In this document: positions 2,774 to 52,406 of the stretch, one piece after another
Position numbering within the stretch: the stretch's first letter is position 1
Layout: every line of letters starts with the position of its first letter
Assembly (NCBI GenBank): GCA_944329385.1
Contig: CALVIE010000002.1
Location: 775-64,774 of the forward strand
Direction: 5' to 3'
From: an uncultured Bacilli bacterium
GTDB taxonomy: Bacteria; Bacillota_I; Bacilli_A; RF39; UBA660
Length of the DNA stretch: 64,000 nucleotides
Made by a program: the position numbers and the translations under genes
The notes under the pieces: generated by a model
Seen by the model: the letters and a program-made list of their open reading frames with translations, nothing else
Databases searched by the model: none
What the model was told of the DNA's origin: nothing

Positions 2774-3100
2774 ATGCTAGAGATAGATATGACCTCGAGG
2801 TATGGTATTTTGTTTGTGAGGTTATTTGGTGAAGTAACTAAAAAAACAAGAAAAAAATTAAATGATGAAGCTGGGGCATTAATTAAGAAAGCCGGAATAT
2901 TGAATGTTGTTTTTAATTTGGAAAATGTAAGTATGATGGATGAAAGTGGATTTAAGACAGTTGTTAAATATTATAATTTATGTAACAGAAATAATGGTAA
3001 TAGCTTGATTTGTTTAAGCAAAAATCGTTTTAATTTTGATTTTACTAGATTTAATATGGTTCCTGATGAATTTTCAGCTATTAAAGTAGTCAATATATGA
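2774..3100 (+). CDS. STAS-domain anti-sigma-factor antagonist (SpoIIAA-like)
   Basis: 108 aa with the STAS pattern ...VVFNLENVSMMDESGFKTVV... It sits immediately upstream of a SigF-type sigma factor. Confidence 0.7.
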   Translation: MLEIDMTSRYGILFVRLFGEVTKKTRKKLNDEAGALIKKAGILNVVFNLENVSMMDESGFKTVVKYYNLCNRNNGNSLICLSKNRFNFDFTRFNMVPDEFSAIKVVNI

Positions 3101-3110
3101 GGGGGAGATT

Positions 3111-3749
3111 ATGGATGAGATAAAAGAAGTTATTTTAAATAATAGTAATTTGATATATAGTATTGCAAGTAAATTTAAAGGTCATGATATTGATGATTTA
3201 TTTCAAGTGGGATGTATCGGGATGATTGAAGCTTATAGGAATTTTGATAAGAGTAAGAATGTAAAATTTACGACTTATGCTTATCCTTTTATTTTAGGTA
3301 AAATTTCGGAATATGTAAGAGAAAATCATAATGTGCGTGTTAGTAAGGACGTGCAGAGAATGAAAAAGAAAATTTTAAAGGTAAGGGAGGCTTTGACTCA
3401 AGAGTTAATGAGGGAACCTTCCAATATTGAAATTAGTGATTATTTAGATATTCCACTTAAGAATTTAGAGCGAATTATGAGTTATGGTTTAGATGGGGTT
3501 AGTTTGGATGAGGTTTATTTGGATGATTTATCACTTTATGATGTAATAGGTGATAAAGTGATAGATTATAACACTTTAACTTTTTTAAAAGATGAAATAA
3601 ATAAATTAAAGGAACCTGAACGTTCAATTATGATTAAAAGATATTTTGAAGATAGGACACAATGCGATACAGCTTTTGATTTGGGGTTGAGTCAGGTTGA
3701 GGTATCTAGAAAAGAAAAGAAGGTTTTGGTTAAGCTTCGTCAGATATAA
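3111..3749 (+). CDS. Sigma-70 family sporulation-type sigma factor (SigF/SigG/SigB group)
   Basis: Region 2 DDLFQVGCIGMIEAYRNFDKSKNVKFTTYAYPFILGKISEYVRE and region 4 HTH GLSQVEVSRKEKKVLVKLR. RBS gggggag lies upstream. Confidence 0.85.
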   Translation: MDEIKEVILNNSNLIYSIASKFKGHDIDDLFQVGCIGMIEAYRNFDKSKNVKFTTYAYPFILGKISEYVRENHNVRVSKDVQRMKKKILKVREALTQELMREPSNIEISDYLDIPLKNLERIMSYGLDGVSLDEVYLDDLSLYDVIGDKVIDYNTLTFLKDEINKLKEPERSIMIKRYFEDRTQCDTAFDLGLSQVEVSRKEKKVLVKLRQI

Positions 3750-3795
3750 TTGACAATCATAATTCATTACACTATAATTAATAATAGGTGATGGT

Positions 3796-4200
3796 ATGAA
3801 AAAAGGTTTTACTTTGGCTGAATTACTCGGAGTTATTGTTATTTTAGGTCTTATTGCGATGATTGCGATTCCAACTATTAATAGTGCTATAAATTCATCA
3901 AGGGATAAGGCTTATGATGAACAGATTAGAACTATTGAAGAAGCTTCGAGAACATATATATCTAAAAACTCATTAAAATTGCCAAATATGACTGAAGGAA
4001 GTACGTGCTGTTTAAGAGTTGAAACGTTACAGGAAGCGGGTTTACTTAAAGCTGATGATATTAAAAATCCAAAGTATGTTAAGGACAGTACGGATACTGA
4101 TGAGAGATTTGAAAATTTTAATGGTTCAGTAATCATTACCTTTACTAAAAATAAATACAATTATGAGTATGTAAATGATAATACATGCACTCCTTGTTAG
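3796..4200 (+). CDS. Prepilin-type N-terminal cleavage/methylation domain protein (type IV pilin/pseudopilin-like)
   Basis: MKKGFTLAELLGVIVILGLIAMIAIP is a canonical class III signal (G|FTLxE plus a hydrophobic helix). The globular part contains two Cys pairs. Confidence 0.85.
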   Translation: MKKGFTLAELLGVIVILGLIAMIAIPTINSAINSSRDKAYDEQIRTIEEASRTYISKNSLKLPNMTEGSTCCLRVETLQEAGLLKADDIKNPKYVKDSTDTDERFENFNGSVIITFTKNKYNYEYVNDNTCTPC

Positions 4201-4259
4201 GGTGCATTTTTTGTATAGAAAAAAACTTTTGATTCATAATAGTTTTAGGAGGAAATTAT

Positions 4260-4697
4260 ATGAAACAAAGTTATCAAGATATTGTTAGTAAAAATAGTCC
4301 AAAAGAAAATGTTTTAATGAATGCCGTTGTAGCTTTTATTTCTGGTGGTTTAATGGGGATAATAGCCCAGTTTTTAATTGATGGCTATAGTGCGTGGCTT
4401 GATATTTCAACTAAAGAAGCGACAAGCATTATGCTTGTTACATTAATATTTTTGAGTTGTTTGTTTACTTCTTTAGGTTTTTTTGATAAATGGGTTAATT
4501 TTTGTAAATGCGGACTTATTATTCCAATTACAGGATTTGCTCATGCAACAATGAGCGCAGCTTTGGAGTATAGAAAAGAAGGCTTAGTTACGGGTATTGG
4601 TATGAATATGCTTAAACTTTCTGGAGCTGTTATTATTTTTGGCGTTGTAAGCAGTTTTGTATTTAGTTTAATTAGGATGGTGGTGGGACTTATATGA
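4260..4697 (+). CDS. spoVAC: Stage V sporulation protein AC
   Basis: 145-aa polytopic membrane protein of typical SpoVAC length and sequence, placed directly before spoVAD/spoVAE. RBS aggagg. Confidence 0.85.
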   Translation: MKQSYQDIVSKNSPKENVLMNAVVAFISGGLMGIIAQFLIDGYSAWLDISTKEATSIMLVTLIFLSCLFTSLGFFDKWVNFCKCGLIIPITGFAHATMSAALEYRKEGLVTGIGMNMLKLSGAVIIFGVVSSFVFSLIRMVVGLI

Positions 4698-5680
4698 CAT
4701 TTAAGTTTAATAATGTTTATATAAATGCATCATCTACGGTAACGGGTCCTTATGAAAGCAATGGTCCTATTGGAAAGTATTTTGATTTGTGTCACGGAGA
4801 TTTATATTTTGGAAATAGGAATTGGGAGGAAGCTGAGGAGTATTTAATTAAAGAAAGTTTTAGTATTTTAGAAAAAAAATGTGGAGTTAATTTAAAAGAT
4901 ATAGATCTTTTTATTGGTGGTGATTTATTAAATCAAATTGCTCCTTCTAATTATGCGATGAGTAATTTTGATAAGAGTTTTATTGGAATTTATGCGGCAT
5001 GTGCGACATCAACTTTAGGACTTATTTTAGGAGGAAGTTTGATTGAAGGTGGTTTTGCGAAAAAAATATTAACATTTACGTCATCACATAATATGGCTGC
5101 TGAAAAACAATATCGTTATCCGACAGAATATGGAGGTCCAAAACCAAAGACAGTGACGTTTACAGCTACGGGAGCGGCTTCATGTTTACTTACTTCAAGT
5201 GGTAATATTAAACTTGAAAGCGGAACAATTGGTACATCTGTCGATTCTACGGTAAAAGATGTTTTTAATATGGGGGCTGTAATGGCTAAGGCGGCAGCTG
5301 ATACGATAGTTAGACATTTGAAGGATACTGGACGAGATATTGATTATTATGATTTGATTTTAACAGGTGATTTGGGAGTATATGGTAAGAAAATTTTAAA
5401 GGAGTATATGAATATGGAATATGGAATAAAACTAAAAAAATATAACGATACTGGAGTAATGCTTTATGATAGAAAAGAGCAGCCAGTTTATGCGGGAGCT
5501 TCTGGGCCTGTTTGTGCACCGCTTGTTACTTATAGTTATATATTTGATGAGATGCGTAAGGGAAAATATAAAAAAGTACTTTTGGCGGCAACTGGGGCAC
5601 TTATGAGTCCTACAATGGTTAATCATAAGCTTTCTATTCCAGCTATTTGTCATGCGGTTAGTTTGGAGGCTACTATATGA
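4694..5680 (+). CDS. spoVAD: Stage V sporulation protein AD
   Basis: 328 aa with a thiolase-like fold. The N-terminus ...STVTGPYESNGPIGKYFD resembles SpoVAD. A 4-nt overlap gives translational coupling with spoVAC. Confidence 0.85.
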   Translation: MTFKFNNVYINASSTVTGPYESNGPIGKYFDLCHGDLYFGNRNWEEAEEYLIKESFSILEKKCGVNLKDIDLFIGGDLLNQIAPSNYAMSNFDKSFIGIYAACATSTLGLILGGSLIEGGFAKKILTFTSSHNMAAEKQYRYPTEYGGPKPKTVTFTATGAASCLLTSSGNIKLESGTIGTSVDSTVKDVFNMGAVMAKAAADTIVRHLKDTGRDIDYYDLILTGDLGVYGKKILKEYMNMEYGIKLKKYNDTGVMLYDRKEQPVYAGASGPVCAPLVTYSYIFDEMRKGKYKKVLLAATGALMSPTMVNHKLSIPAICHAVSLEATI

Positions 5681-6142: not shown

Positions 6143-6601
6143 ATGTTTGTTGTTGGTTATAAAGCTTTTAATAAAGATTTGACTAATAGATATGGTGATA
6201 AATTTGAGGTTGGAAAGGTTTATCATGCAGATGGTGAAATTAAGTGGGGAAATAATGGCAATGGCTTTCATTTATGTACATATTTAGAGGATTGTTTTAG
6301 ATATGTAGATCCTAATATTTCATTAATAACTGAGGTAATTGGTTTTGGTAAGATAAAAAAATATGATGATGATTATTATGGATATTATGATATGTATGTG
6401 TGTGAAAATTTGAGGGTTGTTAGGGTGATTTCTAGAGAAGAAATTATTAGTATGATGCTTAATACGTATGATGATAGAAAAGATAGATTTATTAGGGATT
6501 TTAATTTAACTTTAGATGAGTTAAAATTGTTTGAAGGAGTGGATGAATATGGATCAAATTATAGTGAAAGGTGCGAGGGAAAACAATTTAAAAAATATTA
6601 A
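6143..6601 (+). CDS. Hypothetical protein (DUF7666-like by recollection)
   Basis: The internal ATG at 6143 gives MFVVGYKAFNKDLTNRYGDKFEVGKVYHADGEIKWGNNGNGFHLCTYLEDCFRYVD. The upstream part of the tracked ORF (5972-) overlaps spoVAE and the promoter. The 3' end overlaps the uvrA start by about 50 nt. Confidence 0.5.
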   Translation: MFVVGYKAFNKDLTNRYGDKFEVGKVYHADGEIKWGNNGNGFHLCTYLEDCFRYVDPNISLITEVIGFGKIKKYDDDYYGYYDMYVCENLRVVRVISREEIISMMLNTYDDRKDRFIRDFNLTLDELKLFEGVDEYGSNYSERCEGKQFKKY

Positions 6602-9368
6602 TATTACTTTGCCTAAGAATAAGTTAATTGTTATGACGGGAGTTTCTGGGAGTGGTAAAAGTAGTTTAGCTTTTGATACGATTTATGCGGAAGGGCAAAG
6701 AAGATATATTGAAAGTTTAAGTGCTTATGCAAGGCAGTTTTTAGGTGGGTCTGAGAAACCCGATGTCGATAGTATTGACGGTCTTTCACCGGCGATTAGT
6801 ATTGATCAGAAAACGACTAATAAAAATCCGCGTAGTACGGTTGGAACAGTTACGGAAATTTATGATTATTTAAGGCTTTTATTCGCGCGTATTGGAGTAC
6901 CATATTGCCCTAAACATCATATTCCAATTAGTAGTCAAAGTATTGAAGAGATGTGTAATGATGTGATGAAGCTTCCTGAGAGAACAAAAATTAGAGTTTT
7001 AGGACCAGCTGTTTCTTTAGAAAAAGGGACGCATAAGGATTTACTTTTAAATTTAAGAAAAGATGGGTATGTAAGAGTTATTATTGATGATAATGAATAT
7101 GATTTATCTGAGGATATTGAGCTTGATAAGAATAAGAAACATACAATTGAAGTTATTGTTGATAGACTAGTTATTAAACCGGATATTAGAAGTAGGCTTT
7201 ATGAGAGTATGGAGGTTGCTTCAAAACTTGGACATGGTAAGTTATTAATAGATGTTATAGGCGGGGAAAAGATGCTTATGAGTGAAACTTATGCTTGTCC
7301 TTATTGTGATTTTTCTTTACCTGAACTTGAACCTAGGATGTTTTCATTTAATGCACCTTGGGGAGCTTGCCCAGAGTGTAAGGGGCTTGGAGTTAAGTAT
7401 AAGATAGATGAGGATTTGATTATTCTAGATAAAAGTTTAAGTATTAATGAGGGGGCTATTTCGGCTATTAATACTTCTGATGAGAGCAATATTACTTATA
7501 CTAATTTGGAAACAGCGTGCAGGCATCACTCTATTGATATGGATAAACCGGTTCGTGATTTATCTAGAGATGAGCTTGATATTGTTTTATATGGTTCACC
7601 TGATTTGCTTACTTTTAATTATGTTTCTAAAAGTGGTAATAAGAGAACGACTAAAGGTTATTTTGAGGGTATTATTACTAATTTAGAAAGACGTTATATG
7701 GAAACTAAGAGTACTTGGATTAGGGCGTGGATAGAAAATTATATGACGGAGCTTAAGTGTCCAAAATGTCATGGAGCAAGGCTTAATGATGATGTTTTAG
7801 CTGTTTTAGTTGGTGGCAAGAATATTTATGAAGTGACACAATTTAGTATTAAGGATTTATATTCATTTTTAAGTGATTTGAGGCTTACTAAAGAACAAAA
7901 GGAAATATCTGAGCTTATTATTAAGGAAATTAGTTCTAGGCTTTCATTTTTGATTAATGTTGGACTTGAGTATTTAACTTTAGATAGAGAGGCGAAGACT
8001 TTATCTGGTGGTGAGGCTCAAAGAATTAGATTAGCTACACAAATTGGTTCACAGCTTACGGGTGTTTTATATGTTTTAGATGAACCTAGCATTGGTCTTC
8101 ATCAAAGGGATAATCAAAGATTAATTAATTCTCTTTTGAAGATGCGTGATTTGGGTAATACACTTATTGTGGTTGAGCACGATACTGATACAATGCTTGA
8201 GGCGGATTATTTAGTAGATATTGGTCCGGCTGCTGGTGTTCATGGTGGTGAGGTTGTAGCTGCAGGTACACCTAAAGAGGTTATGGCTAATCCAAACAGT
8301 TTGACTGGTAAGTATTTGACTGGTGAGATGAAAATTGAGGTTCCTTCAAAAAGAAGGAAGGGAAATAAGAAATATTTAGAAATAGTGGGAACTAAAGAGA
8401 ATAATTTAAAAAATATTAAGGTTAAGTTTCCACTTGGTAAGTTTATTTGTGTGACTGGGGTATCTGGAAGTGGTAAAAGTACTTTAGTTAATGAGATTTT
8501 ATACAAGGTTGTTTCTAATAATTTGTATAAGTCTAAGGAAAAACCTGGGGCTTATAAATCAGTTAAAGGTCTTGAGAATATTGATAAGGTTATAGATATT
8601 TCTCAAGCACCGATTGGAAGAACACCTCGTAGTAATCCGGCTACTTATACATCTGTTTTTGATGATATTCGTGATGTTTTTGCAGAAACTAAAGAGGCAA
8701 AAATGAGAGGTTATGATAAAGGAAGATTTTCATTTAATGTTAAAGGCGGAAGATGTGAAGCGTGCTGGGGTGATGGTGTTAAGAAAATCGAGATGCATTT
8801 TTTACCTGATGTTTATGTACCTTGTGAGGTTTGTCATGGAACACGTTATAATAGCGAAACTTTACAGATTAAATACAAGGGTAAGAATATTTATGAAGTT
8901 TTAGAGATGACAGTTGAAGAGGCTTTAAAGTTTTTTGAAAATGTTACAAAAATTAAGAATAAATTACAAATGCTTTCTGATGTTGGACTTTCTTATATAA
9001 AACTTGGTCAAAGTGCACCAACACTGTCTGGTGGTGAGGCAGCTAGAATTAAGCTTGCAAAAGAGCTGCAAAAAAAGCCTACAGGCAAGAGTTTGTTTAT
9101 TTTAGATGAACCAACTACTGGGCTTCATTCTGATGATATTAAGAAGTTACTTGTTATTTTAAATAGGATAGTTGATAATGGAGATACAGTTTTGGTTATT
9201 GAACACAATTTAGATGTTATTAAGCAAGCTGATTATATTATTGATTTGGGTCCAGAAGGCGGCGATGGTGGCGGCGAGATTGTTGTTACTGGAACACCTG
9301 AGGAAGTTGTTTTATGTGAGAAAAGTTATACTGGTAAGTTTTTAAAACCTTATTTGACTATAGATTAA
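6549..9368 (+). CDS. uvrA: Excinuclease ABC subunit A
   Basis: Two ABC modules (GVSGSGKSSLAFDT and GVSGSGKSTLVNE, LSGGEAQR and LSGGEAAR) and zinc-finger Cys clusters (CPYCDF..CPECKG, CEACWGDG..CEVCHG). ATG at 6549 lies 9 nt after RBS gaaggag. Confidence 0.97.
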   Translation: MDQIIVKGARENNLKNINITLPKNKLIVMTGVSGSGKSSLAFDTIYAEGQRRYIESLSAYARQFLGGSEKPDVDSIDGLSPAISIDQKTTNKNPRSTVGTVTEIYDYLRLLFARIGVPYCPKHHIPISSQSIEEMCNDVMKLPERTKIRVLGPAVSLEKGTHKDLLLNLRKDGYVRVIIDDNEYDLSEDIELDKNKKHTIEVIVDRLVIKPDIRSRLYESMEVASKLGHGKLLIDVIGGEKMLMSETYACPYCDFSLPELEPRMFSFNAPWGACPECKGLGVKYKIDEDLIILDKSLSINEGAISAINTSDESNITYTNLETACRHHSIDMDKPVRDLSRDELDIVLYGSPDLLTFNYVSKSGNKRTTKGYFEGIITNLERRYMETKSTWIRAWIENYMTELKCPKCHGARLNDDVLAVLVGGKNIYEVTQFSIKDLYSFLSDLRLTKEQKEISELIIKEISSRLSFLINVGLEYLTLDREAKTLSGGEAQRIRLATQIGSQLTGVLYVLDEPSIGLHQRDNQRLINSLLKMRDLGNTLIVVEHDTDTMLEADYLVDIGPAAGVHGGEVVAAGTPKEVMANPNSLTGKYLTGEMKIEVPSKRRKGNKKYLEIVGTKENNLKNIKVKFPLGKFICVTGVSGSGKSTLVNEILYKVVSNNLYKSKEKPGAYKSVKGLENIDKVIDISQAPIGRTPRSNPATYTSVFDDIRDVFAETKEAKMRGYDKGRFSFNVKGGRCEACWGDGVKKIEMHFLPDVYVPCEVCHGTRYNSETLQIKYKGKNIYEVLEMTVEEALKFFENVTKIKNKLQMLSDVGLSYIKLGQSAPTLSGGEAARIKLAKELQKKPTGKSLFILDEPTTGLHSDDIKKLLVILNRIVDNGDTVLVIEHNLDVIKQADYIIDLGPEGGDGGGEIVVTGTPEEVVLCEKSYTGKFLKPYLTID

Positions 9369-9384
9369 TTTCTATAGTTTTTTT
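9358..9384 (+). terminator. Rho-independent terminator of uvrA
   Basis: Stem ctataga/tctatag with loop ttaat, then T7. It overlaps the stop codon. Confidence 0.7.
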
Positions 9385-9441
9385 GTTTTTTAAAGGAAAA
9401 TTTCTAAAAAAATCGTATGTTTATATATAGAGGTGAAAATT

Positions 9442-10326
9442 ATGAATTACTATGATGAAATAAAAGGTGTTTTAGTAAAAAATGAGGTTTATAAAAAAGT
9501 AAAAGATTATTCAAAAAACAGAAGTGATTTAAATGCTTACTTTGAAGTGGGCAGATTAATAGTGGAAGCTCAAGGTGGTGAGGCAAGGGCCAAATATGGA
9601 AATAAGTTAATCAAAGAATATTCTATTAGATTAACTGAGGAGCTTGGTAAGGGGTATACTGAGAGAAATTTACGTAATATGCGGAATTTTTATATTAAAT
9701 TTAGGAAATGGTACGCAGTGCGTACCGAATTAACTTGGACGCATTATCGTGTAATGTTATCATTAACAGATTTTAAAGAAATTGAATATTATATGAATAT
9801 TGCAGTGATACAAAACCTTTCATATAGAGAACTTAGAGAAAGAATAAAGTCGAAAGAATATGAAAGACTTGGAAAAGATATTAATATAGAAGAGCCAAAA
9901 GTAAATACATTAATTAAAAATCCAATATTGATCAAAGTTAAAAATAAAAATGAAAGGTTAACTGAATATGCCTTACATCAATCTATTTTAGAAAATATTG
10001 ATGATTTTTTAAAGGAACTTGGTATTGGTTTTACTTTTGCAGGTAGTGAAATAAAAATTCAAATAGGTGATAGATATAATTATATAGACTTCTTGTTATT
10101 TAATGTAAAATTTAATTGTTATGTAGTAATCGAACTTAAAATTACAGAAATGAAAGCTGAATATATTGGTCAAATTATGAAATATGTTAGTTATGTTGAT
10201 AAGCATATTAAAGAAATGCATAATGATAAAACAGTAGGTGTAATTATTTGCAGAAAAGAAAATAAATATGTGATGGAGTATTGTACAAACCTTAATATAT
10301 TTGTATCTACTTATGAAACTATATAG
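9442..10326 (+). CDS. DUF1016/YhcG-family PD-(D/E)XK nuclease, paralog 1 of 4
   Basis: The N-terminal DUF1016-type region (...FEVGRLIVEAQGGEARAKYG...NMRNFY...LTWTHYR) and the C-terminal nuclease core (YIDFLLFNVKFNCYVVIELK) match the family. ATG at 9442 after RBS aggtga aligns with the starts of copies 2-4. Confidence 0.8.
   Translation: MNYYDEIKGVLVKNEVYKKVKDYSKNRSDLNAYFEVGRLIVEAQGGEARAKYGNKLIKEYSIRLTEELGKGYTERNLRNMRNFYIKFRKWYAVRTELTWTHYRVMLSLTDFKEIEYYMNIAVIQNLSYRELRERIKSKEYERLGKDINIEEPKVNTLIKNPILIKVKNKNERLTEYALHQSILENIDDFLKELGIGFTFAGSEIKIQIGDRYNYIDFLLFNVKFNCYVVIELKITEMKAEYIGQIMKYVSYVDKHIKEMHNDKTVGVIICRKENKYVMEYCTNLNIFVSTYETI
9710..9726. repeat. 17-nt perfect palindrome inside paralog 1
   Basis: ggtacgca-g-tgcgtacc, GC-rich in an AT-rich gene, centred on the first base of the Val codon of the A-V-R motif. 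Confidence 0.9.
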
Positions 10327-10340
10327 AAAGAAGTGATAAT

Positions 10341-11225
10341 GTGAATTATTATAATGAAATAAAAGATACGCTGGTTAAAAATGAAGTTTATAAAAAGGTT
10401 AAAGATTATTCTAAAAATAGAAGTGATCTAAATGCTTATTTTGAAGTAGGAAGATTAATTGTAGAAGCTCAGGGCGGTGAAGCTAGAGCTAAATATGGAA
10501 ATAGACTGATTAAAGAATATTCTTTAAAATTAACTGAGGAGCTTGGTAGAGGATATAATGTTACAAATTTAAAAAATATGAGGCAATTTTATTTAAGAAT
10601 TAAAAAAGGTCGCACAGTGTGCGACCAATTGCAATGGAGTCATTATAGATATTTATTGCCTATTATTGATGAACAAGCTTTTGATTATTATGTTATGATT
10701 ACAGAAATGTTAAATTTATCAGTAAGGGAACTTAGAGAAAGGATTAAGTCGAAAGAATATGAAAGAATTGGTAAGAATGTAAATTTAGAAAATACTAAAG
10801 TAAATACATTAATTAAGAATCCAATATTAATTAAAGTAAAAAATAAAAATGAAAGGTTAACTGAATATGCTTTACATCAATCTATTTTAGAAAATATGGA
10901 AAATTTTTTGAAAGAATTAGGTGTTGGTTTTGCTTTTATCGGTAGTGAAATAAAAATTAAAATGGGTGATAGATATAACTATATAGATTTTTTACTATTT
11001 AATGTTAAATATAATTGTTATGTAGTAATTGAACTTAAAATAACAGAAATGAAAGCTGAATATATAGGACAAGTTACTAAATATATAAATTATGTAGATA
11101 AACATATTAAAGAAATGCATAATGATAAAACAGTAGGTGTAATTATTTGCAGAAAAGAAAATAAATATGTGATGGAGTATTGTACAAACCTTAATATATT
11201 TGTATCTACTTATGAAACTATATAG
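10341..11225 (+). CDS. DUF1016/YhcG-family PD-(D/E)XK nuclease, paralog 2 of 4
   Basis: 294 aa with a GTG start 14 nt after the previous stop. It has the same architecture as paralog 1, and its 3' ~125 nt are identical to copy 1. Confidence 0.8.
   Translation: MNYYNEIKDTLVKNEVYKKVKDYSKNRSDLNAYFEVGRLIVEAQGGEARAKYGNRLIKEYSLKLTEELGRGYNVTNLKNMRQFYLRIKKGRTVCDQLQWSHYRYLLPIIDEQAFDYYVMITEMLNLSVRELRERIKSKEYERIGKNVNLENTKVNTLIKNPILIKVKNKNERLTEYALHQSILENMENFLKELGVGFAFIGSEIKIKMGDRYNYIDFLLFNVKYNCYVVIELKITEMKAEYIGQVTKYINYVDKHIKEMHNDKTVGVIICRKENKYVMEYCTNLNIFVSTYETI
10608..10626. repeat. 19-nt perfect palindrome inside paralog 2
   Basis: ggtcgcaca-g-tgtgcgacc, at the same codon position as in paralog 1. Confidence 0.9.
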
Positions 11226-11239
11226 AAAGAAGTGATAAT

Positions 11240-12133
11240 GTGAATTATTATAATGAAATAAAAGATACGCTGGTTAAAAATGAAGTTTATAAAAAGGTTA
11301 AAGATTATTCTAAAAATAGAAGTGATCTAAATGCTTATTTTGAAGTAGGAAGATTAATTGTAGAAGCTCAGGGCGGTGAAACTAGAGCTAAATATGGAAA
11401 TAGACTGATTAAAGAATATTCTTTAAAATTAACTAAGGAACTCGGCAAAGGATATACTTATACTAATTTGAGTAGAATGAGACAATTTTATTTACTTTCT
11501 TTAAAAGTTGCGACACTGTCGCAACAATTATATAAAATTAGTTGGAGTCATTATACTGAATTATTGAAAATTAAAAATGTAAATGAATTAAAATATTATA
11601 TCTATGTTATTCAAAAGCAAAACTTATCAGTAAGAGAGCTTAGGGAAAGAATAAAGACTAATGAGTATGAAAGGTTAGGGAGTAAAACAAAGTTAGAAGA
11701 GCCAAAAGTAAATACATTAATTAAAAATCCAATATTGCTCAAAATTAAAAATAAAAATGATAAATTAACAGAATATGCTTTACACCAATCTATTTTAGAA
11801 AATATGGATGTTTTTTTAAAAGAATTAGGTGTTGGTTTTACTTATGTAGGCAATGAAGTAAAGATTAACATAGGAACTAGTTTTCATTATATTGATTTTT
11901 TACTTTTTAACGTGAAATTTAATTGTTATGTTGTAGTAGAACTTAAGATAACTGAATTTAAAGCTGAATATATTGGACAGGTTATGAAATATATAAATTA
12001 TGTTGATAAAAATATTAAAGAGTGTTTTAATGATAAAACGGTTGGTGTGATTATTTGCAGAAAAGAAAATAAATATGTTATGGAATACTGCACGGATAAT
12101 AGGATATTTACTACTACATATGAAACTATATAG
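11240..12133 (+). CDS. DUF1016/YhcG-family PD-(D/E)XK nuclease, paralog 3 of 4
   Basis: 297 aa with a GTG start. The 5' end is nearly identical to copies 2 and 4, and the 3' ~270 nt are identical to copy 4. Confidence 0.8.
   Translation: MNYYNEIKDTLVKNEVYKKVKDYSKNRSDLNAYFEVGRLIVEAQGGETRAKYGNRLIKEYSLKLTKELGKGYTYTNLSRMRQFYLLSLKVATLSQQLYKISWSHYTELLKIKNVNELKYYIYVIQKQNLSVRELRERIKTNEYERLGSKTKLEEPKVNTLIKNPILLKIKNKNDKLTEYALHQSILENMDVFLKELGVGFTYVGNEVKINIGTSFHYIDFLLFNVKFNCYVVVELKITEFKAEYIGQVMKYINYVDKNIKECFNDKTVGVIICRKENKYVMEYCTDNRIFTTTYETI
11507..11525. repeat. 19-nt perfect palindrome inside paralog 3
   Basis: gttgcgaca-c-tgtcgcaac, at the same codon position as in the other copies. Confidence 0.9.
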
Positions 12134-12147
12134 AAAGAAGTGATAAT

Positions 12148-13041
12148 GTGAATTATTATAATGAAATAAAAGATACGCTGGTTAAAAATGAAGTTTATAA
12201 AAAGATTAAAGATTATTCTAAAAATAGAAGTGATCTTAATACCTATTTTGAAGTAGGAAGATTAATTGTAGAAGCTCAGGGCGGTGAAGCTAGAGCTAAA
12301 TATGGAAATAAACTGATTAAAGAATATTCAGCAAAATTAACTATGGAACTTGGTAAAGGATATGGTGTATCTAATTTAAAGAGAATGAGGCAGTTTTATT
12401 TATTGTTTGAAAAAGGTGCCTCACTGCGGCACCTTTTTGGAAATCTTACTTGGACTCACTATAAATATTTATTACCTTTAAATGATAACAAGAAAATATC
12501 TTATTATATGAATATTGCAATATCTGAAAATTTATCATACCGTGAGTTAAGAGAAAAAATAAAAATTAACGAGTATGAAAGGTTAGAAAATAAAATAGAG
12601 TTAGAAGAGCCAAAAGTAAATACATTAATTAAAAATCCAATATTAATTAAAGTAAAAAATAAAAATGAAAAGTTAAGTGAGTATGCACTGCACCAATCTA
12701 TATTAGAAAATATGGGAGATTTTTTGAAAGAGCTTGGCATTGGATTTTTATATGCAGGTAGTGAAGTAAAGATTAACATAGGAACTAGTTTTCATTATAT
12801 TGATTTTTTACTTTTTAACGTGAAATTTAATTGTTATGTTGTAGTAGAACTTAAGATAACTGAATTTAAAGCTGAATATATTGGACAGGTTATGAAATAT
12901 ATAAATTATGTTGATAAAAATATTAAAGAGTGTTTTAATGATAAAACGGTTGGTGTGATTATTTGCAGAAAAGAAAATAAATATGTTATGGAATACTGCA
13001 CGGATAATAGGATATTTACTACTACATATGAAACTATATAG
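12148..13041 (+). CDS. DUF1016/YhcG-family PD-(D/E)XK nuclease, paralog 4 of 4
   Basis: 297 aa with a GTG start and the same architecture as the other copies. Confidence 0.8.
   Translation: MNYYNEIKDTLVKNEVYKKIKDYSKNRSDLNTYFEVGRLIVEAQGGEARAKYGNKLIKEYSAKLTMELGKGYGVSNLKRMRQFYLLFEKGASLRHLFGNLTWTHYKYLLPLNDNKKISYYMNIAISENLSYRELREKIKINEYERLENKIELEEPKVNTLIKNPILIKVKNKNEKLSEYALHQSILENMGDFLKELGIGFLYAGSEVKINIGTSFHYIDFLLFNVKFNCYVVVELKITEFKAEYIGQVMKYINYVDKNIKECFNDKTVGVIICRKENKYVMEYCTDNRIFTTTYETI
12410..12438. repeat. 29-nt near-perfect palindrome inside paralog 4
   Basis: 11-bp arms aaaaaggtgcc/ggcaccttttt around tcactgc, whose ca/tg can also pair. It sits at the same codon position as in the other copies. 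Confidence 0.85.
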
Positions 13042-13047
13042 AAAGAT

Positions 13048-13758
13048 TTATCTTTTGCTAAAAATATAAAGAAATAAGGAACTGGAAGAAATTACTAAGA
13101 GTGTAAATAATAGAATATATATTTCTATACCCAAGTTATTTATTAAATTGATAAGAATGTCATTTACTGATGTTCCAAAAAATTGAATGTTAAAAATAGC
13201 TACATTATCTACATAATTTGAAAAATTAAACGGATCTAAAAATGTATTTAAAAAAATATAATTGGATCCATTTTTTATTAAGGAATTGGCTATATATGCT
13301 AGAAAAATTTGAATAAACATTAATAAAATGTTTTTAAAGGAAAATTTAGCTTTATAGTTTTTGGTTATAAATGCTCCAGATATTAATAAAAAGAAGTGAT
13401 AGAGATAACAATATAAGTTATTAAAGTTGAGTATTTTTGGATTTGTAAAGAAAATGGCAGCAATAGAAAAAAATATTCCGAAGGCGCTTAAGTAATTTAA
13501 TAGAAATTCTTTTTTGGTTTTTAGATAAATTATACCAATAATAGGGTATAGGTAACAAAGTTGAAGAGGTAAATCATTATTTAGATGGAAATTATTAGTG
13601 AAAATTAAAAATAAAAATTTTGATATTTCTAAGAATAATAATAGAAGTAAGATGTTTGTTAAGTTTGCTTTATTTTTTTTTAGTTTAAATCCAATTATGA
13701 TAGGCAATATTATAAGAGTTAAAATGATTAATATATGGGGTATAGAAAATATTTTCAT
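13048..13758 (-). CDS. Polytopic integral membrane protein, function unknown (possibly YwaF/TIGR02206-like)
   Basis: 236 aa and almost entirely hydrophobic helices. The family assignment is only a recollection-level guess. Confidence 0.5.
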   Translation of the reverse strand: MKIFSIPHILIILTLIILPIIIGFKLKKNKANLTNILLLLLFLEISKFLFLIFTNNFHLNNDLPLQLCYLYPIIGIIYLKTKKEFLLNYLSAFGIFFSIAAIFFTNPKILNFNNLYCYLYHFFLLISGAFITKNYKAKFSFKNILLMFIQIFLAYIANSLIKNGSNYIFLNTFLDPFNFSNYVDNVAIFNIQFFGTSVNDILINLINNLGIEIYILLFTLLVISSSSLFLYIFSKR

Positions 13759-26413: not shown

Positions 26414-26535
26414 TTATGATTTATTAGTTATAGGCTTTTAAATAATAAGAAAGTTTTATTTTTAAAAAGTGAAAAAAGAATGTGAAGTTTTGTAAATGGC
26501 TAGTCAAAATAATATATCTATGGTATAATTTAATT

Positions 26536-26740
26536 GTCTAAAAGAAGAATACCGCTATGAAAAACCTACTAAGTATAACGATTGGGAATCTAATTCGCTG
26601 GTGGTGTAGAATACTTTAATTTATTAAAGGATCCTAAAACTAGTGATGTGATGCCCACCTGGGAGATCAGGTTTTTAATTCGTTAAGGTTTCTCTTTTGG
26701 ACTTTATTTGAAAAACTCTTGAATTTCAAGGGTTTTTCTT
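26536..26740 (+). ncRNA. Candidate ~200-nt independent transcript (sRNA, leader or small-peptide mRNA)
   Basis: An extended -10 TGgTATAAT (26521-26529) is followed about 190 nt later by a hairpin ctcttg/caaggg plus a T-run (26711-26740). The segment contains locally GC-richer stretches and a 20-codon ORF, MKNLLSITIGNLIRWWCRIL. No known riboswitch motif was recognised. Confidence 0.3.
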
Positions 26741-51775: not shown

Positions 51776-52406
51776 TAGGTTTGTTGTAGATGGTAGAAAT
51801 GTTGGAAAGACAACATTTCTACTTTCTGAAATAGAGAAAAATATGTCTGAGAATAGTAGAATTATTGTATTGGATTCTGCTACTGAACATGAGGATAAAT
51901 CATTATTAAAAAAAGTTGAAAAAAAATATGATGATGTGGTGGTTTTTTCGCCTAATGATATAAATGATATTGTGTTAAACCATATTAATATAGATGAATT
52001 TATTCAAAATTTTAGTTCTTATTATCCATATGATGAAATCGTAAAAAATAAGAATAAATTAATTTGTTTTGACTTGTCTTATTTTCTAGAGTTTGCTCAT
52101 ACAATTTATGATGAAACTAATAATGAAGAATTATATAAATATTATAGGTCATGTTATAATTTTTTATCTGAACAGATTGTACTTGTCATTATTTTGATGA
52201 AAAAATATGATATAATTGATACGAATTTGGTTGTTATGGATGAACTGGAGTTTCCTATAACAACTTATGATATTTCTTGTTTTCAAGAAAATATATCGTT
52301 TTTAGCTTCTGTTCACCCAGAAAATTCTTTTGGAAGTTTTTACAAAAGTTTTGAACCAGCTGATTTTAAGCCTTATAAACCTTATGTTAAGAGAAAGGAA
52401 TGTTAA
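51768..52406 (+). CDS. Small P-loop NTPase, unknown family
   Basis: Walker A DGRNVGKTT and Walker-B-like LVVMDELEF. It overlaps the maturase gene by 8 nt. Confidence 0.55.
   Translation: MYNRFVVDGRNVGKTTFLLSEIEKNMSENSRIIVLDSATEHEDKSLLKKVEKKYDDVVVFSPNDINDIVLNHINIDEFIQNFSSYYPYDEIVKNKNKLICFDLSYFLEFAHTIYDETNNEELYKYYRSCYNFLSEQIVLVIILMKKYDIIDTNLVVMDELEFPITTYDISCFQENISFLASVHPENSFGSFYKSFEPADFKPYKPYVKRKEC

What the first reader, a model, noticed from the sequence alone, without database searches (positions are those of the whole stretch)
9710..12438. Each of four tandem nuclease paralogs carries a different GC-rich palindrome at the same codon (compensatory covariation inside coding DNA)
All four DUF1016 paralogs contain a palindrome within the FY....(A/T/S)(V/L)(R/C/S)..L.W(S/T)HY segment.
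- Copy 1: ggtacgca-G-tgcgtacc (9710-9726).
- Copy 2: ggtcgcaca-G-tgtgcgacc (10608-10626).
- Copy 3: gttgcgaca-C-tgtcgcaac (11507-11525).
- Copy 4: aaaaaggtgcc-tcaCtgc-ggcaccttttt (12410-12438).
In every copy the symmetry centre is the first base of the Val/Leu codon, and the core is CA(G/C)TG. The arm sequences differ completely, and so do the encoded residues (WYAVRT, GRTVCD, VATLSQ, GASLRH), yet pairing is preserved in each copy. Four independent 8-11-bp GC-rich arms at the homologous position of an AT-rich gene are very unlikely by chance. This points to selection on a DNA cruciform, a ssDNA or mRNA hairpin, or a dimeric-protein site, rather than on the protein alone. Because each copy has its own palindrome inside its own hypervariable region, each protein might recognise its own site (autoregulation, self/non-self marking, or a recombination or gene-conversion hotspot). 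I know of no description of this for the family.
Basis: seen in the sequence. Interest (0 to 1): 0.85.

Follow-up and report, generated by a model that had tools for sequence, protein, structure and literature searches.

The report
Nuclease genes carrying their own palindrome
Genes of a widespread bacterial nuclease family (DUF1016/YhcG) carry a near-perfect DNA palindrome at the same codon, and its sequence changes in step with the protein's own ParB-like DNA-reading helix, which suggests that each protein recognises a site written inside its own gene.

Summary
The four tandem DUF1016/YhcG genes (9442-13041) each carry a GC-rich odd palindrome at the stated coordinates. These are four of only five such palindromes in the 64-kb window. 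In 102 of 117 homologues from related gut Bacilli, the gene's best palindrome is centred on the same base. The same holds in 111 of 184 distant family members from many phyla (GC 24-68%), including E. coli yhcG. Arms covary: 93.5% paired against 58.7% when shuffled. Codon use is overridden: the centre codon is NTG, and Leu is CTG 45 times against 1.4% elsewhere. G·T wobble is not tolerated, so the constraint acts on DNA rather than mRNA. The palindrome encodes the loop that follows a ParB-type helix-turn-helix (Pfam HTH_ParB, Foldseek ParB/Noc, alignment to Spo0J). Recognition-helix residues covary with the arms more strongly than with any other column. Best explanation (about 0.5): a parS-like cognate site for the gene's own dimeric product, inherited with the recognition helix as one module. 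What the protein does there is unknown. Rivals are a recombination hotspot, template-switch drive and an RNA hairpin. I found no published description.

The parts
9442..10326 (+). DUF1016/YhcG paralogue 1. The ATG at 9442 matches the MNYY N-terminus of the other copies; the ORF tool lists a GTG at 9433.
   Evidence: Pfam DUF1016_N 3.4e-30 and YhcG_C 1.9e-36. PADLOC PDC-S02 2e-69.
10341..11225 (+). DUF1016/YhcG paralogue 2.
   Evidence: Its 3' part is identical to copy 1.
11240..12133 (+). DUF1016/YhcG paralogue 3.
   Evidence: Its 5' 195 nt are nearly identical to copies 2 and 4, and its 3' part is identical to copy 4.
12148..13041 (+). DUF1016/YhcG paralogue 4.
9710..9726 (.). Palindrome of copy 1, GGTACGCA-G-TGCGTACC. 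It encodes WYAVRT, the loop between helices 74-88 and 99-106.
10608..10626 (.). Palindrome of copy 2, GGTCGCACA-G-TGTGCGACC (GRTVCD). On the minus strand it is followed by TTTTTT and looks like a terminator.
11507..11525 (.). Palindrome of copy 3, GTTGCGACA-C-TGTCGCAAC (VATLSQ).
12410..12438 (.). Palindrome of copy 4, AAAAAGGTGCCTCA-C-TGCGGCACCTTTTT (14-nt arms, one mismatch; EKGASLRHLF).
9604..9705 (+). Copy 1, coding for the ParB-type helix-turn-helix (aa 55-88; recognition helix TERNLRNMRNFY). Equivalent segments are 10503-10604, 11402-11503 and 12310-12411 in copies 2-4.
   Evidence: Alignment to B. subtilis Spo0J 120-194. AF2 helices 55-68 and 74-88. Residues 73-79 covary with the palindrome-encoded residues 90, 91 and 95.
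9721..9855 (+). Copy 1, aa 94-138, which match the second half of Pfam HTH_ParB (LTWTHY..LL corresponds to ParB LS.GHAR.LL).
   Evidence: E 0.019, below the cut-off; the Clostridium homologue scores 23.5 bits against a cut-off of 22.6. (28 of 69 members).
9651..9831 (+). Type-defining variable module of copy 1 (gene nt about 210-390: recognition helix, palindrome, next helices). It is hypervariable between paralogues. The equivalent module is invariant within a type in related genomes.
9910..10320 (+). Copy 1 PD-(D/E)XK nuclease domain (YhcG_C; conserved D216, E231, K233).
   Evidence: Foldseek NucS 2vld, E 1.7e-3. NucS_C matches in 30 of 69 members.

Best explanation
The palindrome is a double-stranded DNA site. 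It is the cognate, parS-like binding site of the protein encoded by the same gene.

DUF1016/YhcG proteins combine an N-terminal ParB-type helix-turn-helix domain with a C-terminal PD-(D/E)XK (NucS-like) nuclease domain. A symmetric dimer would place its two recognition helices on the two arms of the odd-length palindrome.

The palindrome lies 15-20 codons downstream of the codons for the recognition helix. It sits in the loop that corresponds to the ParB segment 'LPxxVxxLIxxG'. Reader and site therefore form one tightly linked module (gene nt about 210-390). They diversify together, which gives each paralogue in the window its own helix and palindrome pair.

Shown here:
- the palindrome is family-wide;
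- the constraint acts at the DNA level;
- the domain is related to the ParB HTH;
- helix residues and arm bases covary.

Inferred:
- physical binding by the gene's own product;
- the consequence of binding. The most conservative reading is autoregulation, by a roadblock or occupancy at about +270 in its own transcription unit. In the four-gene array this would also affect the downstream paralogues. Loading or cleavage at the site is equally open.
For: 1. Conservation of position.
- In 102 of 117 homologues of the window clade, the best palindrome of the gene is centred on the same base.
- In 111 of 184 distant genes (GC 0.24-0.68) it is centred exactly 18 nt before the conserved Trp codon. Arms are 7-18 nt and loops are 1, 3, 5 or 7 nt.
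- E. coli yhcG has 15-nt arms.
- Nine or ten of 12 plasmid genes from different phyla also have it.

2. Covariation.
- Cells paired: 93.5% against 58.7% when shuffled. Covariation score 0.762 against 0.169, 0 of 500 shuffles. Slid registers give 24-43%.
- In the broad family, positions ±2 to ±10 are Watson-Crick in 72-87% of genes against 32-60% when shuffled.

3. The constraint overrides coding.
- The centre codon is CTG 45, GTG 36, TTG 18 and ATG 14 times. Elsewhere in these genes CTG is 1.4% of Leu codons and GTG 10.6% of Val codons. The preceding codon is NCA in 112 of 117 genes.
- A synonymous GCG to GCC change is coupled to TCG (Ser) to TGG (Trp) in an otherwise near-identical 100-nt background.

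4. DNA rather than RNA.
- Stem mismatches of G·T type number 12, of A·C type 29 and of other types 27, out of about 2,350 pairs.
- The innermost pairs are kept.
- The centre base shows strand parity: C 40, G 35, T 18, A 15.
- There is no Rfam match.

5. ParB-type HTH.
- Pfam HTH_ParB matches at aa 94-138: 6.1e-5 and 23.5 bits (above the 22.6 cut-off) in the Clostridium member, 0.019 and 0.041 in window copies 1 and 4. It matches 28 of 69 members.
- The family profile aligns to Spo0J residues 120-194. hhalign gives E 1.2e-4, probability 54%.
- Foldseek finds ParB and the Noc DNA-binding domain for the N-domain in two separate models.

6. Reader and site covary.
- Helix residues 73, 74, 75, 78 and 79 have their highest mutual information, among all columns of the protein, with residues 90, 91 and 95. 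Those three are encoded by the arms.
- Window clade classes: TGG. arms with 'LR' 28 of 28; GGTG arms with 'LKR' 17 of 17; nTTGC arms with 'LSR' 11 of 11.
- In a distant clade: TTGTGCAA goes with R..K in 52 of 62, TTGTCCAA with [ATS]..[LMF] in 15 of 15, TTGGTCAA with Q..K in 4 of 5. The TCC class is not monophyletic outside the module.

7. The module is nucleotide-identical within a type while the rest of the gene differs by about 6%.

8. Untranslated fragments that still keep the palindromes occur next to one gene.

From my own knowledge of the ParB family: ParB, Noc and KorB bind 13-16-bp palindromes as dimers. The KorB operator TTTAGCSGCTAAA is odd-length. A B. subtilis parS lies inside spo0J.
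Against: - No binding, cleavage or expression data exist.
- The HTH_ParB matches of the window proteins are below Pfam's cut-off, and the Foldseek and PDB-sequence matches are individually insignificant (E 0.1-0.6).
- Helix-arm covariation could reflect contacts inside the protein between the loop and the helix. It could also reflect co-inheritance of a 50-nt-apart pair within one recombining module. I ran no phylogeny-aware test.
- A sequence-specific nuclease whose only site lies in its own gene looks self-destructive unless binding and cutting are uncoupled.
- No second copy of any palindrome is found near a promoter or elsewhere in the window.
- Eight- to nine-bp arms with a 1-bp centre give a shorter, odd-length site, unlike canonical even-length parS.
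Confidence: 0.5

Rival explanations
1. The palindrome is a structure-forming DNA element (hairpin or cruciform). It acts as a hotspot for breakage and recombination, so that the variable module can be exchanged between paralogues, partial copies and alleles. This would be cassette-type diversification. It need not involve sequence-specific binding, and it is not exclusive of the best explanation.
For: - Alleles are mosaic. The same flanks carry different loops, for example IATLSQ against GATLWH.
- L062 and L300-L303 carry an array of seven 36-200-nt gene fragments, each centred on a different palindrome. The array is identical in four samples. Three of its types are expressed in orthologues elsewhere.
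- 5' partial copies end 70-85 nt after their palindrome, and copy order differs between strains.
- The module is nucleotide-identical in genes that differ by 6% elsewhere.
- Two independent IS-associated breakpoints lie inside the E. coli yhcG palindrome.
- In the window, conserved flanks (nt 1-195 and about 440-560) bracket the variable module.
Against: - Most family members are single-copy genes with no donor cassettes, yet they keep the palindrome.
- In the window, identity breakpoints between paralogues are not at the palindrome.
- Eight- to nine-bp arms are short for cruciform extrusion or SbcCD-type cleavage (my own knowledge).
- Selection for evolvability is second-order.
- This reading does not explain why the recognition-helix residues track the arm sequence.
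Confidence: 0.15
2. The palindrome has no function. An ancestral inverted repeat is kept perfect by replication template switching (quasipalindrome correction). This process copies a change in one arm to the other arm and inverts the spacer. The tolerant protein loop simply follows.
For: - Pairing is strictly Watson-Crick with no wobble preference.
- Synonymous and radical non-synonymous changes are coupled.
- The centre base shows complement parity and frequent G/C flips between close relatives.
- Both orientations of 3-nt spacers occur: GGT and ACC, GCT and AGC.
- Palindromes persist in pseudogene fragments.
- Published work reports that template switching can create and maintain hairpins and homogenise inverted-repeat arms in coding DNA (PMC8794818, PMC8604942, PMC7202029; titles and abstracts seen).
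Against: - Loss would be irreversible. Yet the palindrome is kept in about 87% of one clade and about 60-70% of a family whose members share only 26-30% protein identity.
- Arms are not mutational hotspots between close relatives: 0.031 differences per site, mostly the centre base, against 0.061 in the rest of the gene.
- No other gene in the window shows such a palindrome.
- Drive does not predict covariation with helix residues 30-60 nt upstream.
- Template switching may still be the mutational route by which compensated variants arise.
Confidence: 0.12
3. The element works as an RNA hairpin. In the mRNA it could act through pausing, processing, stability or truncation, as with the arfA hairpin. 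On the antisense strand it could act as an intrinsic terminator.
For: - The predicted hairpins are stable.
- In the window clade the conserved Lys codons (AAAAA) put a T-run right after the hairpin on the minus strand. Copy 2 scores as a terminator, and copy 4 has A and T runs on both sides.
- A·C mismatches, which are G·U on the antisense strand, outnumber G·T by 29 to 12.
Against: - G·U-type pairs on the sense strand make up only about 0.5% of stem pairs, fewer than transversion mismatches.
- Pairs ±1 and ±2, which cannot form in a hairpin with a 1-nt loop, are the most conserved in the window clade.
- The centre base shows strand parity.
- T-runs are absent in the distant clades.
- There is no Rfam match.
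- Only one terminator-like hit occurs in the region.
Confidence: 0.08
4. The palindrome is bound or cut by some other protein, such as a host factor, a partner from neighbouring Type I R-M or integrase genes, or a transposase, rather than by the DUF1016 product.
For: - Family members often sit between hsdM and hsdS or next to an integrase.
- DUF1016 genes are enriched next to targets of programmed inversion (PMC9881135).
- IS elements have hit the E. coli palindrome.
Against: - No partner is conserved. The window array lies between uvrA and a membrane-protein gene. Other loci lie next to comEC, MFS or sodA genes.
- The only constant companion of the palindrome across phyla is the DUF1016 protein itself, and its helix residues track the arms.
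Confidence: 0.07

Closest known systems
ParB/Spo0J-parS, Noc-NBS and KorB-OB (ParB-family HTH proteins with palindromic sites)
   Same: - The HTH domain is related. The segment GK(G/S)..xNL..MR.FY followed by L(S/P)W(S/G)H..LL parallels ParB GKSRS.V.N.LRLL followed by LS.GHAR.LL (Foldseek).
- The site is a short palindrome, presumably read by a dimer.
- From my own knowledge: the KorB operator is odd-length (13 bp, centre S), and a B. subtilis parS lies inside spo0J.
- The parS consensus and the regulatory roles of ParB and KorB are described in PMC7022226.
   Different: - There is no ParB N-terminal CTPase domain (no Pfam hit). The C-terminus is a PD-(D/E)XK nuclease.
- The site is always inside the codons of the protein's own DNA-binding domain, at a fixed codon.
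- The site is hypervariable and diversifies together with the recognition helix.
- Binding is not demonstrated.
Controller (C) proteins and C-boxes of restriction-modification systems; antitoxin and operator autoregulation
   Same: A small dimeric HTH reads a palindromic operator linked to its own gene and restrains a potentially toxic nuclease (my own knowledge). DUF1016 genes often sit in R-M operons.
   Different: C-boxes lie upstream of the gene, not inside the ORF. The HTH type is different. There is no evidence here for promoter control.
NucS/EndoMS and HsdR N-terminal type PD-(D/E)XK nucleases
   Same: The C-terminal domain matches NucS (Foldseek 2vld, E 1.7e-3; NucS_C in 30 of 69 members and HSDR_N_2 in 42 of 69). 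From my own knowledge, NucS acts as a dimer symmetric about a single central base pair.
   Different: The N-terminal domain is different (ParB-type HTH). Mismatch recognition is not implied.
Silent-cassette gene conversion (HO/MAT, pilE/pilS, vlsE, tprK)
   Same: An expressed gene is paired with partial, untranslated cassettes that carry alternative versions of a variable segment between conserved flanks (L062 array and 5' partial copies). Alleles are mosaic.
   Different: This is seen in only some related species, not in the window, where all four copies are intact. No switching has been observed. Most family members are single-copy.
Conserved intragenic RNA hairpins (arfA, SECIS, frameshift stimulators)
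   Same: A stem at a fixed position in a coding sequence constrains the encoded residues across a gene family (my own knowledge).
   Different: Here there is no G·U tolerance, the innermost pairs are kept, strand symmetry is present, and there are no stop or slippery signals in frame.
Quasipalindrome template-switch mutagenesis
   Same: Paired arm changes and inversion of the spacer or centre base (PMC8794818, PMC8604942, PMC7202029, seen).
   Different: It is a mutational process, not a function. It does not explain the deep retention or the covariation with the recognition helix.

Membership tests
DUF1016/YhcG (Pfam PF17761 + PF06250) | Matches to both domain models above the gathering score. 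| tested here: met
   All four window proteins match: DUF1016_N 102-111 bits, YhcG_C 116-129 bits.
PD-(D/E)XK nuclease superfamily | Catalytic D...(D/E)xK motif on the core beta-sheet. | tested here: met
   D216, E231 and K233 are invariant in alignments A2, A5 and A7. Foldseek hits NucS, MGME1 and Cas4-family proteins. Activity was not tested.
PADLOC candidate defence system PDC-S02 | Match to the PDC-S02 protein models. | tested here: met
   E 2e-69. The system is only a candidate. I found no functional study.
ParB/KorB/Noc family | HTH_ParB domain (PF17762) at or above the gathering score. | tested here: inconclusive
   Window copies score 13-15.6 bits against a cut-off of 22.6 (E 0.019-0.096). 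The Clostridium homologue L081 scores 23.5 bits. hhalign to Spo0J 120-194 gives probability 54%, E 1.2e-4. Foldseek to ParB and Noc gives E 0.1-0.6.
ParB/KorB/Noc family | N-terminal ParB CTPase domain (ParBc, GxxR box). | tested here: not met
   No ParBc match in any of 69 members at E<=1. This is therefore an HTH relative, not a ParB.
ParB/KorB/Noc family | Dimer binds a cognate palindromic DNA site. | not testable with these tools
   The palindrome and its covariation with the recognition helix are shown. Binding needs EMSA, ChIP or a structure.
Intrinsic (Rho-independent) terminator | GC-rich stem followed by a T-run on the transcribed strand. | tested here: not met
   Only the minus strand of copy 2 qualifies. 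T-runs are absent in the distant clades.
Any curated RNA family (Rfam 15) | Covariance-model match. | tested here: not met
   No match at E<=1 in 9300-13200.
Structured RNA hairpin under selection | G·U pairs tolerated in stems on the folded strand. | tested here: not met
   Sense-strand G·T-type mismatches number 12, against 29 A·C-type and 27 other, in about 2,350 stem pairs.
Silent-cassette gene-conversion systems | An expressed locus plus partial donor cassettes, with observed switching. | tested here: inconclusive
   Donor-like arrays and mosaic alleles occur in related species. There are none in the window. No within-population switching data exist.
R-M controller (C) protein and C-box | Operator upstream of the regulated genes; small Xre-type HTH protein. 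| tested here: not met
   The site is intragenic and no palindrome lies in the upstream region 9369-9441. The HTH is ParB-type.

The most novel reading that the evidence does not exclude
Each DUF1016 module is a self-contained lock-and-key cassette: the recognition helix plus its own 17-33-bp site, written into the same roughly 180 nt. The nuclease acts on that site and does not merely sit on it. There are two possible routes.

(a) It cuts or loads at its own gene to trigger exchange of the module with paralogues or silent cassettes. This would be an HO/MAT-like self-switching nuclease.

(b) It attacks incoming DNA (phages, plasmids, ICEs) that carries a gene of the same type. This would be kin-directed exclusion. 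It would favour rare types, and it would explain both the many discrete types and the arrays of different paralogues.

Either route would be a new way in which a gene family encodes its own target.
Probability: 0.2. Interest if true: 0.92.

Novelty: new variant of a known kind. Interest (0 to 1): 0.82.

Why it matters
DUF1016/YhcG is one of the commonest uncharacterised nuclease families. It occurs in R-M operons, defence islands, plasmids, ICEs and prophages. My searches hit their 8,000-candidate scoring cap, and 485 plasmid records carry it.

A family-wide DNA element that overrides the genetic code at a fixed codon, and that co-diversifies with the protein's DNA-reading helix, gives the first concrete and testable handle on what these proteins recognise: their own gene.

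That bears on three questions:
- how DNA-binding specificity diversifies without losing its target;
- how toxic nucleases are kept in check;
- how tandem arrays of defence paralogues keep distinct identities.

It is also a caution for annotation and evolutionary analysis. Six or more codons of this family are dictated by DNA symmetry, not by protein function.

Tried and rejected
- **Chance.** Rejected.
- **Protein-level explanation of the palindrome.** Rejected on codon usage and on the coupling of a synonymous change to a Ser-to-Trp change.
- **-1 frameshift site.** The A-rich run before the hairpin is not in the X XXY YYZ frame and is absent in distant clades (reading).
- **Known RNA family.** None found.
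- **Sense-mRNA hairpin.** Disfavoured by the mismatch spectrum.
- **Antisense terminator.** Fits only part of the window clade.
- **Hypermutation hotspot.** Rejected. Arms and flanks are more conserved than the rest of the gene between close relatives.
- **Extra copies of the palindromes elsewhere.** There are none in the window. Related loci have none except in gene fragments. In 5,426 E. coli genomes the only copy is in yhcG.
- **Direct PDB sequence homology.** Single proteins gave nothing useful.
- **First AF2 model.** It came from a shallow alignment, was poor (pLDDT 60), and its C-domain was uninterpretable. The second model was better (pLDDT 69).
- **Single-protein scans of viral contigs.** They found only close relatives.
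- **Literature searches.** They returned no functional study of DUF1016 and no mention of the palindrome.

Full report
**1. The observation**

The region holds four tandem, co-oriented genes downstream of uvrA: 9442-10326, 10341-11225, 11240-12133 and 12148-13041. All four are DUF1016_N + YhcG_C proteins. They match the PADLOC candidate defence family PDC-S02.

Copy 4 is better described as 14-nt arms with one mismatch around a single centre base. Each centre is the first base of a Val or Leu codon, and the core is CA-N-TG.

The window has 28.6% G+C. It contains only five palindromes with arms of at least 7, a loop of at most 8 and at least four G/C pairs, and four of them are these. As single strands they fold at -7 to -11 kcal/mol, with z between -3.3 and -4.9.

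**2. It is a property of the gene family, not of this array**

A scan of one genome per species returned 80 loci from uncultured gut Bacilli (52-79% identity), often with tandem arrays of two to six copies.

- In 102 of 117 homologous ORFs, the best perfect palindrome of the whole gene is centred on the same base.
- Among 108 distinct sequences, positions ±1 to ±8 are Watson-Crick in 90-99%, with two to four pair types at positions 3-8.
- Formal counting gives 93.5% paired cells against 58.7% after shuffling. The covariation score is 0.762 against 0.169 (0 of 500 shuffles). Sliding the register by 1-3 columns gives 24-43%.

Very distant members show the same thing at the homologous position, just before the conserved L(S/P)W(S/T/G/Y)H motif. 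These share 26-35% identity and come from Clostridium, Deinococcus, Cupriavidus, Curtobacterium, Aeromonas, Acaryochloris, Citrobacter, Vescimonas and Fulvitalea.

In 184 non-redundant genes from plasmids, metagenomes and viral contigs (G+C 0.24-0.68), 111 have their longest palindrome centred exactly 18 nt before the Trp codon. Arms are 7-18 nt, loops are 1, 3, 5 or 7 nt, and the centre is always at codon position 1. Over all 163 distinct sequences with an aligned Trp, palindrome or not, positions ±2 to ±10 pair in 72-87% against 32-60% after shuffling.

E. coli K-12 yhcG carries AAAGATTTGGCAGAC-GCT-GTCTGCCAAATCTTT plus two shorter units.

**3. The constraint is on nucleotides and overrides the protein**

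- The centre codon is CTG 45, GTG 36, TTG 18 and ATG 14 times. Elsewhere in the same genes CTG is 1.4% of Leu codons, TTG 10.9% and GTG 10.6% of Val codons.
- The preceding codon is NCA in 112 of 117 genes, against 23-52% elsewhere.
- Amino acids on the two sides follow base complementarity: A pairs with R or P; T with S, C, F or W; P with A, G, V, D or E.
- Two alleles identical over about 100 nt differ by the compensating pair GCG..TCG against GCC..TGG. This is a synonymous Ala change coupled to Ser-to-Trp.
- AF2 models place the encoded residues (89-96 in copy 1) in a low-confidence loop between helices 74-88 and 99-106. That loop can presumably absorb such changes.

**4. DNA rather than RNA**

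- Stem mismatches of G·T type on the sense strand number 7 and 5 in the two sets. A·C-type mismatches number 17 and 12, and other types 13 and 14, out of 864 and 1,485 pairs. A selected mRNA stem should be rich in G·U.
- In the window clade the two innermost pairs are the most conserved, although they could not form around a 1-nt loop.
- The centre base shows strand parity: C 40, G 35, T 18, A 15.
- No Rfam family matches.
- Only the minus strand of copy 2 looks like a terminator.

**5. What the protein is**

- The C-terminal domain is a PD-(D/E)XK nuclease closest to NucS (Foldseek 2vld, E 1.7e-3; NucS_C in 30 of 69 members).
- The N-terminal domain turns out to be a ParB-type helix-turn-helix.
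- Pfam HTH_ParB matches the residues right after the palindrome loop. The Clostridium member scores 23.5 bits, above the 22.6 cut-off. Window copies 1 and 4 give E 0.019 and 0.041. In all, 28 of 69 members match.
- The family profile aligns to B. subtilis Spo0J residues 120-194. LTEELGKGYTERNLRNMRNFY aligns with LAKRLGKSRPHIANHLRLL, and LTWTHY..LL aligns with LSMGHGRTLL. hhalign gives E 1.2e-4 and probability 54%.
- Foldseek ranks ParB and the Noc DNA-binding domain for the N-domain in two independent models.

Each match is weak on its own, but they agree. There is no ParB CTPase domain. The protein is therefore a relative of the ParB HTH, not a ParB.

**6. Reader and site covary**

In the window clade, recognition-helix residues 73, 74, 75, 78 and 79 have their highest mutual information with residues 90, 91 and 95. 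This holds among all columns of the protein, and those three residues are encoded by the arms. The values are 78-90: 0.77; 75-95: 0.77; 74-90: 0.63. They are higher than with the intervening variable positions 85-88.

Classes are clean:
- TGG. arms go with 'LR' in 28 of 28 and 'ER' in 23 of 28.
- GGTG arms go with 'LKR' in 17 of 17.
- nTTGC arms go with 'LSR' in 11 of 11.

The four window copies follow these rules.

An unrelated clade behaves the same way:
- TTGTGCAA goes with R..K in 52 of 62.
- TTGTCCAA goes with [ATS]..[LMF] in 15 of 15.
- TTGGTCAA goes with Q..K in 4 of 5.

There the left-arm difference is synonymous (GTG against GTC) and the right-arm difference is Ala against Gly. That change is too small to explain the loss of an Arg and a Lys through packing. 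By the rest of the protein, the TCC class is not monophyletic.

ParB-family proteins bind 13-16-bp palindromes as dimers. From my own knowledge, the KorB operator is odd-length and a B. subtilis parS lies inside spo0J. The general properties are reviewed in PMC7022226.

**7. The module**

Between genes that are 90-99.9% identical, the segment from nt about 210 to 390 shows no differences, while the rest differs by about 6%. This segment holds the recognition helix, the palindrome and the next helices. Only the centre base changes often.

Between paralogues the same segment is the most variable, whereas the flanks are homogenised. Copies 2-4 share their first 195 nt. Copies 1 and 2, and copies 3 and 4, share their 3' parts.

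The syntenic uvrA locus holds one to four copies of different types in related genomes.

**8. Best explanation and its limits**

I conclude that the palindrome is most likely the cognate, parS-like duplex site of the gene's own product, inherited with the recognition helix as one unit (confidence about 0.5).

Shown: family-wide conservation, a DNA-level constraint, ParB-HTH relatedness, and covariation between helix and arms.

Inferred: binding, and what follows from it. Such long palindromes have no other copy in the host. There are none in the window, and yhcG holds the only copy in 5,426 E. coli genomes. The protein's only assured target is therefore its own gene. Autoregulation by occupancy at about +270 is the conservative reading. 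Loading or cutting is open.

Against this reading: there is no biochemical evidence. The covariation could reflect contacts inside the protein or module-level linkage. A nuclease with its only site in its own gene needs some safeguard.

**9. Rivals**

- **Recombination hotspot or cassette exchange (0.15, not exclusive).** It is suggested by mosaic alleles and by an array of seven palindrome-centred gene fragments downstream of one gene, identical in four samples. Partial copies and IS breakpoints inside the E. coli palindrome point the same way. However, most family members are single-copy.
- **Template-switch drive without function (0.12).** It explains the perfect pairing and the flips of the centre base (PMC8794818, PMC8604942). 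It does not explain the deep retention, the low variability of the arms or the link to the helix.
- **RNA hairpin or antisense terminator (0.08).** It conflicts with the mismatch spectrum.
- **Another binding protein (0.07).** It lacks any conserved partner.

**10. Novelty**

Full-text searches for DUF1016, YhcG, PDC-S02, intragenic palindromes and quasipalindromes found no functional study of the family and no mention of this element. The kind of system is known: an HTH dimer with a palindromic site. The arrangement appears to be undescribed.

Noticed in passing
L062 1190-1830 (same array in L300 3910-4550, L301, L302, L303): Downstream of a full-length DUF1016 gene lies a non-coding array of seven short gene fragments (36-200 nt). 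Each is centred on a different palindrome type: WSPLAT, GQPVVA, GATLSH, GVALPH, IAPLAQ, GQPLAD, GATVWH. Each is flanked by aaaaaGG..CCaatt. The array is identical in four metagenome samples. Three of the types are the expressed loop in orthologues elsewhere.
   Followed up: partly
L304-L313 (comEC-DUF1016 locus), about 3000-5000: A full-length gene is followed by a 5' partial copy that ends 70-85 nt after its own, different palindrome. The order and identity of types differ between strains: IATLSQ then GATLSH; IATLSQ, GQPLAD, then APLAH; GATLWH then GQPLAD.
   Followed up: partly
L314 2134-2935 (E. coli CP025916.1) and L315 1788-3244 (E. coli AP027679.1): In some E. coli strains yhcG is broken inside its 33-bp palindrome. 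In one case homology ends 4 nt before the palindrome end and a transposase gene follows. In the other an IS1 is followed by yhcG starting 7 nt into the left arm. These are two independent IS-associated breakpoints in the same 33 bp.
   Followed up: partly
L093 8130-8240 (E. coli K-12 yhcG): K-12 YhcG has three consecutive in-frame 'QTxS' palindrome units (HQTMSG, PQTPSA, WQTLSAK) and lacks the W.H motif after them. Tandem units also occur in Fulvitalea (L092), L272 and L295.
   Followed up: no
window 9442-13041: The paralogues are mosaics of gene conversion. Copies 2-4 are nearly identical over nt 1-195. Copies 1 and 2 are identical over their last 120 nt or so, and copies 3 and 4 over their last 280 nt or so. 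The central module stays distinct.
   Followed up: partly
L078 6888-7896: Two decayed N-terminal-only copies (aa 1-135) are each followed by the same repeat of about 100 bp, which has a terminator-like hairpin (AAGCAATT..AATTGCTTTTTTT). Another stretch (7687-7696) holds an even 10-bp palindrome GTGTCGACAC where the usual odd palindrome would be.
   Followed up: no
window 26532-26707 (+): 6S/SsrS RNA gene (Rfam RF00013, 54.4 bits). It is the only Rfam match at gathering score in the window.
   Followed up: no
window 51793-51822: The only other palindrome in the window that passed the G/C filter: GTAGAAATGTTG-GAAAGA-CAACATTTCTAC (12-nt arms). I did not examine it; it may be a terminator.
   Followed up: no
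window 6531-9368 and 13048-13758; L296-L299: The array sits between uvrA and a TMEM164-like membrane-protein gene, upstream of rpsL-rpsG-fusA-tuf. Related genomes have one to four DUF1016 copies at the same spot. SpoVA genes nearby indicate a spore-forming lineage.
   Followed up: partly
both sequence sets: Among the rare stem mismatches, A·C types (29) outnumber G·T types (12) on the sense strand. This is the opposite of what an mRNA stem would show, and it is unexplained.
   Followed up: no
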